Source: Aplysia californica (taxonomy: Eukaryota). From it: DNA of 64,000 nucleotides. Within the stretch, counting starts at the first letter, position 1, and each line of letters opens with the position of its first letter. Positions 53,066 to 55,079 of this stretch are shown here, piece by piece. The position numbers were made by a program, and so were the translations under genes. The stretch is from NCBI RefSeq assembly GCF_000002075.1, contig NW_004797556.1:117409-181408 (forward strand), in the 5' to 3' direction. The notes under the pieces were generated by a model. That model was given only the letters and a program-made list of their open reading frames with translations. It made no database searches and had not been told where the DNA came from.

Positions 53066-53679
53066 TATTAGCCCCAGTAACCTCAGCCCTGATCCTTTTT
53101 GGGTAATTTCCGGTAATACTGGGAGGCACGGCGCACGAAATCTGCCGAAATCCTGCCTTTTAGTTGCACCTCAGTTGCCGATGTCCGGCGGTAATTAATC
53201 ACCCCGCCCGGTACCTGACTGTTAACCTTTTTTTATTGGGGTCATTTGACCTCATTGCACCATTATAAACTGGGATGCGTTCTTGATAAAATCGTCTCAT
53301 TTACTATCTCAATTGCAGTGGTGCCATTGGACCCACCTAGTAGTATTAATTTATAGACTTTAGCAACACCATTTCTCCTCCTCTTAAAGAAAGTCCCAGT
53401 CTTCTATGTTTTATACCAGGTGTTCTACACGTGTCTGTTTGCTGCATGTGTAATTTCTCTTTTCTTATTTCAAATTGAGGATAAATAATCATTTATAGCG
53501 ACAAAACGGTGCTTTGAATTTTATTTTTTTTAGTACTATGTGCGTGTTCATTAACAAATCCTGTTTTAAGTGTGTAAATTTCAGTACTACCGCAGTTGTG
53601 GTTGTTCAGTTACATCGGATTATTATGTTGGGCCCGCAAATTTACTAACGTTATTGCCGTATGCAACAAAGACCTTAAA

Positions 53680-54063
53680 ATGGAGCACACACCTGAAAGT
53701 CATGTATCCGTCTTAAACAGTCTGTGTAGAGTGTGCGGAAGACTTAACATTACAAGGAAGCAGAGAAAATCCTTTAAAAAGCCGTATTTGTGTTAGGAAA
53801 TAGCCTGTGATCTCTTCTTTGTGTTTTGATGGAATATCAAAGATGACACTAGTGTCAAATGCTCCAAATTTATGTGTTTGAAATGCTGTAAAACATTCTA
53901 TGATGCTAAACGTCGAAATAATGCAGTGTCCCTACAAACAAGAAGAGACTTTTTTGACAACAGTCAACACAATTGGTGTGCTTACAGTGAAGACTGTGAT
54001 GCAAAGACGTGCTCAGTCTGTGAACAGAAAAAAAACTGCTCTCTCTTGGCTGTGCCACAGTAA
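53680..54063 (+). pseudogene. RAG1 N-terminal-like (Chapa/N-RAG-TP-type) zinc-binding domain remnant of a DNA transposase
   Basis: A single frame with two internal stops reads MEHTPESHVSVLNSLCRVCG...KPYLC*EIACDLFFVF*WNIKDDTSVKCSKFMCLKCC...NWCAYSEDCDAKTCSVC. Confidence 0.72.
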
Positions 54064-55079
54064 AGCAACGTAACCCCCAGTCTCACTACAGTAGTCAAGA
54101 AACATACACAAACCGAGCTAGTCCTAACACCAACATTTCTGAGACAGACACAACCACACAAAGTACATACCCGTGCTCTCAGCACTCAAAACACAAAAAA
54201 AACGACCCGCGCACAGTAAAGTCTGAATTGTCACACCAACCCTCAGTCTGTTGTCCCAGTCAGTGACCAAAACATAGATGTACAACATGCAGACACAATG
54301 ATTCAGGACATGTGTGTATATATAATAATAAAACATATAGAGCCTAATAATTCATGTGGAGTTAAGTGAGGGAAATGTGTGGATATTTATGGGAAAGTGA
54401 TGCATATATCAAACATTTTGAGGTTACAGAAACTGCGTTAGCAGTGAAATTTGGTGAGTAGATACCCTTAAGTATTACGTTCATAATGTCCCTCAAAGAT
54501 TAACTAATTCTGATGCTCAGTTTTCTTATTATGGGCACTCGTTATGTCATAATAGAAACGTTAACGGGAATCAGACAGACCATCTTGCACTATCTGTTAC
54601 AACTAAACCGACCAATACTGATTCACTTTGTTTTTGAAATATCTTGAAAAAGACTCGAAACTTTTGATTCCCTCATGCAGTGATGTCTTTCAGTCAATAT
54701 TAATGCGTTAATTAGCGTTCAATTCTGGATACAAAATACGATTTTCTAAACTTCTAGCGCGGTCACGCTGACCGAAGAATGCCCAAGCGATGATCAGCAC
54801 CCTCTTGATCTTGGCTCAGGGTAGATCTAGATCCAGGTTCTTCTAGATCTATGGCTTAGGTTTAGATCTAGATCATCTAGACAGAAAGACATCAATCATA
54901 GATTTACACACGCACACACACACACACTCTACTGGGTCTGGGCGCTGAAACTTTCCGAAATCACAAAAGATTTCCGCTACAGGGTCTGTATACTTCATGA
55001 CTTTGTTCCTGGTTAGCGGGTCTGTATACACTTTGTTTGGATATTGCCTTCCCATTTGACGTTTGTTTACATAACAAGT

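What the first reader, a model, noticed from the sequence alone, without database searches (positions are those of the whole stretch)
53127..54310. RAG1 N-terminal-like zinc-finger transposase relic about 1 kb upstream of ADCK5
Seen: the ORF track splits this region, but 53680-54063 is one reading frame with only two stops. It carries H-x6-LCRVCG ... NI-x-D-D ... C-x2-C ... W ... C-x2-C, followed by a Thr/Gln-rich low-complexity stretch. Established: this pattern characterises the non-core N-terminus of RAG1/RAG1L, the Chapa domain of Chapaev transposases, and the N-RAG-TP elements described from Aplysia. Seen: a candidate left end CACGGCGCACG lies at 53127, about 550 bp upstream of the ATG, and Chapaev and Transib/RAG elements start with CAC. 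Inference: this is a truncated member of a lineage linked to the origin of V(D)J recombinase. No catalytic core, RAG2-like ORF or right TIR is visible here.
Basis: partly seen in the sequence, partly recalled or inferred. Interest (0 to 1): 0.7.

Follow-up and report, generated by a model that had tools for sequence, protein, structure and literature searches.

The report
Broken Chapaev transposon with uneven ends
This is a broken, internally deleted copy of a known kind of jumping gene (Chapaev) whose full-length version in the same genome encodes its own transposase, predicted to fold like the antibody-gene enzyme RAG1, and whose two ends differ by about one turn of DNA, which likely parallels the 12/23 spacing rule but is untested.

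Summary
It is a dead, non-autonomous Chapaev copy. 29 of 48 non-self genomic matches start at 53124-53128. Sister copies end in an inverted CACGGCGCAC, with 4-bp target duplications in 16 of 18 and none of 5 bp. A 4,350-bp copy (L080) carries the missing DDE core and no RING or RAG2-like gene. The window copy lacks parent bases 1192-3783 and the last 78 bp, and has two stops and a frameshift. Family profiles hit the RAG1 N-terminal NMR structure 21WB (E 3e-6 to 3e-4). An intact sister transposase models onto RAG1 core (Z 29.4) and Transib (Z 24.9). The finger is the two-N-terminal-His type, the one less like RAG1's. So it is a known RAG cousin, not a Transib/RAGL element and not a stand-alone N-terminal module. 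Of more interest: in 9 of 9 related elements the two ends align best 9-11 bp out of register, long at the 5' end. This scan already noted that on four other stretches; I took the lead from one and confirmed it here. Function is untested.

The parts
53127..54793 (+). Non-autonomous Chapaev copy, ~1.7-kb subfamily, right end lost (1,667 bp)
   Evidence: Matches parent L080 element bases 1-1191 (85.6%) and 3784-4272 (81.4%); boundaries shared with sister copies
53127..53136 (+). Left terminal inverted repeat core CACGGCGCAC
   Evidence: Inverse of sister right ends ...GTGCGCCGTG
53158..53166 (+). Distal box TTTTAGTTG of the long (5') end; TTAG at element position 34 (25 at sister right ends)
   Evidence: 21 of 24 left ends at 34, 18 of 18 right ends at 25 among ends caught by the pattern
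53680..54027 (+). Chapa (RAG1-NZD-like) double zinc finger, pseudogenised: H3, H8, C16, C19, C66, C69, W99, C111, C114; stops at 53794 and 53827
   Evidence: profile hits to PDB 21WB
54028..54310 (+). Start of the Ser/Thr-rich linker, shifted out of frame at an 8-A run (54028-54035) and with further small indels
   Evidence: linker disordered in the sister model (pLDDT<50, residues 124-246)
54309..54310 (+). Internal deletion junction (CA microhomology) removing parent bases 1192-3783, including the whole catalytic core
   Evidence: the same junction (parent 1189-1191 to 3784-3798) in the 9 other delimited ~1.7-kb-type copies used
54311..54793 (+). Non-coding right arm; last 78 bp with the right TIR missing
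   Evidence: no remainder in the window or in the next 19.8 kb
54794..55043 (+). Fragment (interior plus one arm) of an unrelated high-copy ~0.7-kb inverted-repeat element that abuts the break

Best explanation
The stretch is a dead, internally deleted copy of a 4.35-kb Chapaev DNA transposon, likely pasted here by the family's own transposase acting in trans, and it has since lost its right end and gathered stops. Shown: shared left end, right arm, deletion junction, 4-bp duplications in sister copies, and a full-length family member with Chapa finger, linker and DDE core. Inferred: the deletion derivative arose once and was copied as a non-autonomous subfamily (shared junction, about 90% pairwise identity, older than a second 2.07-kb subfamily at about 97%); a later deletion removed the right TIR and ran into a neighbouring repeat. 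Predicted: the transposase cuts and pastes with a RAG1/Transib-type core, reading each end as a CAC-led terminal block plus a distal TTAG box set about one helical turn further in at the left end. The window copy can neither make a protein nor, lacking a right end, be moved.
For: Left end shared by 29 of 48 non-self matches. 4-bp duplication in 16 of 18 distinct two-ended copies, 0 of 18 with 5 bp. L080:1123-5472 is 4,350 bp, duplication GTGC, with GGDHG, GDYDF, PCLWC, YLHIL, PKQH-x4-H and EQGTES motifs, one stop and one frameshift. Intact 937-aa sister ORFs (L061, L062, 99% alike) match the window finger at 40% over 121 aa. Pfam DUF1280 in both cores, no RAG1-core family at E<=1. Model of L061 (pLDDT 85): RAG1 core Z 29.4, rmsd 3.9, 463 aligned; HzTransib Z 24.9, rmsd 3.4, 402; P element Z 11.1; Hermes Z 7.6. 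Chapaev hallmarks per PMC4079192 passages: 3-4-bp TSD, CAC..GTG, C(2)C, LH, H(4)H.
Against: No Repbase Chapaev reference could be aligned, so the family name rests on hallmarks, not on a tree with named members. L080 groups with the younger subfamily, so it is a relative of the true donor, not the donor. The window copy's own duplication cannot be read (right end lost). TSD length is not an absolute divider: some Transib relatives have 2-3 bp (bioRxiv 10.64898/2026.08.26.747230, passage). The fold was predicted for a sister family (54% identical in the core), not for L080.
Confidence: 0.93

Rival explanations
1. A Transib/RAGL (ProtoRAG-type) transposon relic, a close ancestor-like form of RAG1.
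For: Finger profile hits mouse RAG1 NZD first; core fold ranks RAG1 first; CAC-led bipartite ends.
Against: 4-bp, not 5-bp, duplications; core only 13-16% identical to RAG1/Transib in the structural alignment and no RAG1 Pfam hit; no room or frame for RAG2L in 4,350 bp, longest reverse frame 141 aa inside the transposase; finger lacks RAG1's W-x2-H ligand.
Confidence: 0.03
2. A stand-alone N-terminal-only transposon (the way N-RAG-TP is described in reviews) that could have donated the RAG1 N-terminus.
For: The two amplified subfamilies do carry only the finger and linker; PMC8355894 describes N-RAG-TP as made only of RAG1-N-terminal-like sequence (passage).
Against: Both subfamilies are internal deletions of a full element with its own core; shortened copies (1.2-2.5 kb) also exist in sister families. 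The original paper was not held, so identity with N-RAG-TP is untested.
Confidence: 0.02
3. A domesticated zinc-finger (ZAD-like) host gene or a regulatory element of the neighbouring kinase gene.
For: Weak ZAD similarity: zf-AD E 0.005 for L061, 7PO9 E 0.04-0.08, fold Z 4.4, rmsd 3.1, 61 aligned. The left junction is also in a contig of a second sample (record 9), and the copy sits 1.2 kb from the likely ATG.
Against: Dispersed repeat with TIRs and duplications; two stops and a frameshift; the window copy is no better kept than its sisters (86-90% to them). Nothing tested shows an effect on the neighbour.
Confidence: 0.02

Closest known systems
Chapaev transposons, RING-less group (Kapitonov and Jurka 2007, not read; described in PMC4079192, PMC4411706, PMC12730594 passages; sea-hare members such as Chapaev-3_ACa named in bioRxiv 10.64898/2026.01.24.700457)
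   Same: CAC..GTG ends, 4-bp duplication, Chapa finger, DDE with C(2)C, LH and H(4)H motifs
   Different: This copy is a dead deletion derivative; whether this exact family is in Repbase could not be checked; unequal end spacing not found described for Chapaev in my searches
N-RAG-TP of Aplysia (Panchin and Moroz 2008; not held, known here only from passages in PMC8355894, PMC8374863, 10.1101/100735)
   Same: Mobile element carrying only RAG1-N-terminal-like coding sequence, likely the same host group
   Different: Here the N-terminal-only form is shown to be an internal deletion of a full transposon; sequence identity with N-RAG-TP untested
RAG1/RAG1L and RAGL-A transposons (PMC10462144, PMC7204232 passages)
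   Same: NZD-like finger, predicted core fold, CAC-led ends with a distal box offset by about 10 bp (PflRAGL-A has a 10-bp asymmetry)
   Different: No RAG2L, no RING, 4-bp not 5-bp duplication, finger with two N-terminal His, TGGQP in place of GGRPR, distal box T-rich TTAG rather than an A-tract nonamer
Transib (PMC1131882 passages)
   Same: Core fold (HzTransib Z 24.9); some families have 12/23-like ends
   Different: Transib lacks the finger (bioRxiv NZD paper) and makes 5-bp duplications; in the 12/23-like Transibs the short end is 5', here the long end is 5'

Membership tests
Chapaev | 5'-CAC...GTG-3' terminal inverted repeats | tested here: met
   sister copies and L080; the window copy keeps only the left one
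Chapaev | 3-4-bp target site duplication | tested here: met
   16 of 18 two-ended copies 4 bp; L080 GTGC
Chapaev | DDE triad with C(2)C, LH and H(4)H motifs | tested here: met
   In L080 and L061; deleted from the window copy
Chapaev | N-terminal Chapa zinc finger | tested here: met
   profile hit to 21WB; motifs match those quoted in PMC1131882
Chapaev | Phylogenetic grouping with named Repbase Chapaev transposases | not testable with these tools
   No Repbase sequences available; tree has only unnamed homologues
Chapaev3 | 3-bp TWA duplication | tested here: not met
   Duplications are 4 bp of varied sequence
Transib | 5-bp duplication | tested here: not met
   0 of 18
Transib | No NZD/Chapa finger before the core | tested here: not met
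   Finger present
RAGL/ProtoRAG | Convergent RAG2-like kelch gene inside the TIRs | tested here: not met
   4,350-bp L080 and 4,105-bp L061 have no reverse frame over 141 aa; about 800 bp non-coding after the stop in L080
RAGL/ProtoRAG | Core recognisable as RAG1 by sequence | tested here: not met
   No PF12940 hit at E<=1 for either core; no RAG1 core by phmmer; 13-16% identity in fold alignment
RAG1/Transib fold (works like) | RNase H core with RAG1-type insertion and zinc site | tested here: met
   Sister model vs 6OEP Z 29.4, rmsd 3.9, 463 aligned; Foldseek E 1e-15
RAG1 (works like) | Nonamer-binding domain with GGRPR hook | tested here: inconclusive
   Conserved T-G/K/R-G-Q-P (G in 45 of 45 rows that cover it) falls on GGRPR in a low-confidence part of the HMM alignment; four fold alignments extend into the NBD at rmsd 5.7-8.2; a profile of this region alone finds nothing
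RAG/RSS 12/23 rule (works like) | Two ends with spacers differing by about one helical turn | tested here: met
   9 of 9 elements, best offset 9-11 (two with ties)
RAG/RSS 12/23 rule (works like) | Cleavage needs one long and one short end | not testable with these tools
   Needs a biochemical or cell assay
Chapa type II (bioRxiv 10.64898/2026.01.24.700457) | Second zinc held by two N-terminal and two C-terminal ligands | tested here: inconclusive
   Sequence pattern fits: H3+H8 and C111/C114, no His after W99; 19 such vs 6 RAG1-like (W-x2-H) and 4 ambiguous among 29 finger-bearing rows of 54. Type label assigned from the paper's text; zinc geometry not inspected
N-RAG-TP | Sequence identity with the published element | not testable with these tools
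   Paper not held

The most novel reading that the evidence does not exclude
Chapaev transposases use a RAG-like long/short end rule without RAG2: a CAC-led block plus a distal TTAG box, one helical turn further in at the 5' end, read by a domain equivalent to RAG1's nonamer-binding domain. The 12/23 design would then predate the split of Chapaev from Transib/RAG, and 'N-terminal-only' elements such as N-RAG-TP would be mere deletion derivatives of such transposons. Near-identical intact 937-aa copies in this genome would make it directly testable.
Probability: 0.35. Interest if true: 0.72.

Novelty: new member of a known kind. Interest (0 to 1): 0.3.

Why it matters
The window copy itself is ordinary genomic debris. 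Two family-level points have some value. First, N-terminal-only RAG1-like elements in this genome are deletion derivatives of full Chapaev transposons, which weakens scenarios in which a stand-alone N-terminal transposon fused with Transib, if N-RAG-TP is one of these. Second, conserved long/short ends in a RAG2-less cousin of RAG1 bear on when the 12/23 rule arose and offer a single-protein system to test it. The scan has noted the second point before on other DNA.

Tried and rejected
Pfam on the read-through window peptide: only a sub-threshold unrelated hit. phmmer of a single finger or a single full transposase against solved structures: no RAG1. Search for longer homologues of the finger alone: none at E<=0.001, weak evidence. 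Atlas: not available for this sequence. Fold search with the finger model: only ZADs, best Z 4.4, not significant; 21WB was not listed. Profile of the NBD-like region: no hit. RAG1 core family search in G000: none, but the control never rang, so uninformative. Viral contigs: no relative. Expression: no RNA holder listed; two polyA runs give under 1x on the copy but also about none on the kinase exons, so no verdict; at 85% likeness three runs show low depth (mostly under 10x, up to 20x) on the family's 5' half from unassigned copies. Per-element shuffle test of the end offset was significant (p<0.05) in 6 of 9, not in L080 (0.11), L061 (0.23), L067 (0.31). Automatic end finding gave no TIR/TSD pair for 28 of 52 loci and no finger for 7; two of its picks (L078, L115) lacked the family's end pattern and were dropped as chance, and redundant copies of one family were counted once. 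Of 13 metagenome loci only L129 and L136 gave both ends, neither with a duplication. Literature: 'Chapaev'+'heptamer' 1 paper, 'Chapaev'+'asymmetric' 9, 'Chapaev'+'terminal inverted repeats'+'4-bp' 0; from listings and, for the one, passages, none describes unequal Chapaev ends. Repbase Reports and Panchin and Moroz 2008 were not readable and may do so; bioRxiv supplements (NZD alignment figures) were not seen and bear on the type I/II label.

Full report
Observation. A search of the window's own genome G000 with 53070-54400 gave 49 matches from 40 scored of 103 candidates; 29 of the 48 non-self matches start at 53124-53128, with unrelated flanks. So 53127 is a real element end. Homology does not stop at 54310 but goes on to 54793.

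Ends and target duplication. Sister copies run 78 bp past the point where the window copy stops and end in ...TTTCTGTGCGCCGTG, the inverse of the left end. Of 30 fetched loci, 18 distinct copies had both ends; 16 of 18 are flanked by a 4-bp duplication, none by 5 bp, one has a damaged end and one a 3-of-4 match. They fall into a ~1.7-kb class, which includes the window copy, and a ~2.07-kb class. Over the first 1,180 bp the short class is 90% alike pairwise (10 copies) and the long class 97% (8 copies).

The parent. A copy at G000:C550:356622-360971 (L080:1123-5472) is 4,350 bp with a GTGC duplication. Its single gene has the finger, a Ser/Thr-rich linker and a core with GGDHG, GDYDF, PCLWC, YLHIL, PKQH-x4-H and EQGTES; it carries one stop and one frameshift. 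The window copy equals parent bases 1-1191 joined at a CA microhomology (54309-54310) to 3784-4272. Three more long copies are partial (L079, L084, L107); I saw no intact copy of this family. L080 groups with the younger class, so it is a relative of the donor. There is no RING pattern in the L061 linker, none by eye in L080, and no reverse-strand frame over 141 aa, so no RAG2-like gene. At 54794 a fragment of an unrelated high-copy inverted-repeat element begins, lacking about its first 100 bp; a deletion across the two best explains the lost right end (inference).

The protein. The finger of an open sister copy found 151 matches in G000, among them a sister family with intact 937-aa frames in copies 99% alike (L061, L062). 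Pfam gives DUF1280 in both cores, sub-threshold RAG1_imp_bd (E 0.01-0.014) and zf-AD (E 0.005) for the finger, and no RAG1 core. Profiles of the family hit the RAG1 N-terminal NMR structure 21WB first: E 4e-5, 3e-6 and 3e-4. The model of L061 (pLDDT 85) matches RAG1 core at Z 29.4 (rmsd 3.9, 463 aligned), HzTransib and amphioxus RAG1L at Z 24.9, P element at 11.1 and Hermes at 7.6, at 13-16% identity for the RAG/Transib rows. The finger model matched only ZADs, weakly. Among 54 aligned homologues, 29 scored as finger-bearing: 19 have His3+His8 and no His after the Trp, like the window copy; 6 have RAG1's W-x2-H; 4 are ambiguous. By the text of bioRxiv 10.64898/2026.01.24.700457 (parts 1-4 of 6 read) the first pattern would be type II, the one less like RAG1; the label is my inference.

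Filing. CAC..GTG ends, 4-bp duplication, DDE with C(2)C, LH and H(4)H are the Chapaev hallmarks given in PMC4079192 (passages); the Chapa domain and its link to RAG1 are in PMC4411706 (passages) and PMC1131882 (passages); PMC12730594 places Chapaev, Transib and RAG1 in one CMCT clade (passages). It fails Transib, RAGL and Chapaev3 tests. Sea-hare Chapaev families are already named in two of these papers; the host here is likely a sea hare, going by earlier scan notes and gastropod homologues. N-RAG-TP is described in PMC8355894 as made only of RAG1-N-terminal-like sequence (passage). The original was not held, so I cannot say whether it is this family; but here, and in sister families with 1.2-2.5-kb forms, N-terminal-only or shortened elements are deletion derivatives.

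Unequal ends. An earlier scan note on another piece of this genome (e1-9572750) suggested that Chapaev ends differ by a helical turn; three notes on other genomes say the same. I tested it on my own loci. Seven families delimited by TIR and duplication in G000 and two metagenome elements delimited by TIR only (L129, L136) all give a best left/right register of 9-11 bp, long at the 5' end (9 of 9; ties at 9/10 and 11/14 in two). In 8 of 9 a TTAG box sits at 33-36 on the left and 24-25 on the right; L136 has a different box with the same 10-bp shift. Background rates after any CAC in the window are 1.2% and 0.4%, and the spacers are only 36-38% alike on average between families. In the window's family the box is at 34 in 21 of 24 left ends (33 in two, 24 in one unamplified insertion) and at 25 in 18 of 18 right ends. 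Against: the families are related, two closely; the per-element shuffle test passes in 6 of 9 and not in the window's own family; the box is not an RSS nonamer; the candidate nonamer-binding region has TGGQP rather than GGRPR and its homology is inconclusive; no assay shows that the enzyme needs one end of each kind. Such asymmetry is in print for some Transibs (PMC1131882) and for RAGL-A (PMC10462144, passages; context in PMC7204232, passages); three searches found no statement for Chapaev, but the Repbase reports and the 2008 paper could not be read.

Mechanism. Shown: a cut-and-paste family with 4-bp duplications, two amplified deletion classes and a full-length member. Inferred: mobilisation of the short class in trans, then decay and loss of the right end at this locus. 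Predicted: a RAG1/Transib-type core and bipartite end recognition with one long and one short end. The window copy is inert as a transposon. Its left junction is also in a contig from a second sample (record 9); no effect on the neighbouring ABC1/ADCK kinase gene was shown, and the RNA runs could not decide expression.

Verdict. A real but ordinary dead copy of a known superfamily; interest 0.3, carried mostly by the family-level end asymmetry, which the scan has already noted elsewhere.

Noticed in passing
window 52260-53067: An ~810-bp TA-flanked inverted-repeat element (CAGTGGA...TCCACTG), at least 39 other copies at 91-97%, 60 bp left of the Chapaev copy; looks like a Tc1/mariner-type MITE (recalled label).
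   Followed up: partly
window 51500-51600 and 54794-55043: Two remnants of arms of one high-copy ~0.7-kb inverted-repeat family face each other across the Chapaev copy; the left one is more decayed, so nesting in one element is not shown.
   Followed up: partly
L061/L062/L064 (G000:C880, C379, C1039): A young sister Chapaev family of 4.1 kb with intact 937-aa frames in two copies, 99% alike; one copy begins CACAGTG, the RSS heptamer. Best material for an assay.
   Followed up: partly
L090:896-1167 (G000:C7): A 272-bp mini-copy with a 4-bp duplication that keeps only 45 bp of the right end, which includes the TTAG box.
   Followed up: no
L008/L024 (G000:C3): One insertion whose left spacer is 10 bp shorter, making both ends short; no other insertion with this form among 24 left ends.
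   Followed up: partly
L088 (G000:C133): Copy with 226 bp left and 92 bp right ends, a 4-bp duplication and about 1.5 kb of other sequence between; shares its left flank with L021 on another contig.
   Followed up: no
L065 (G000:C1142): A 7.1-kb copy whose length is due to an insertion holding reverse-transcriptase-like frames, not to a transposase core.
   Followed up: partly
window 43739-45212: Broken hAT transposase; C-terminal dimerisation domain PF05699 at E 2e-5.
   Followed up: partly
window 39818-41744 (-), 49435-51113 (+), 62927-63481 (-): Fragmented frames that look like LTR-retrotransposon gag/pol/integrase and an RNase H-bearing LINE end, judged by eye from the ORF list.
   Followed up: no
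window 55952-57400: First coding exons of an ABC1/ADCK-family kinase gene; PF03109 exons follow at G000:C286:186766-196528.
   Followed up: partly
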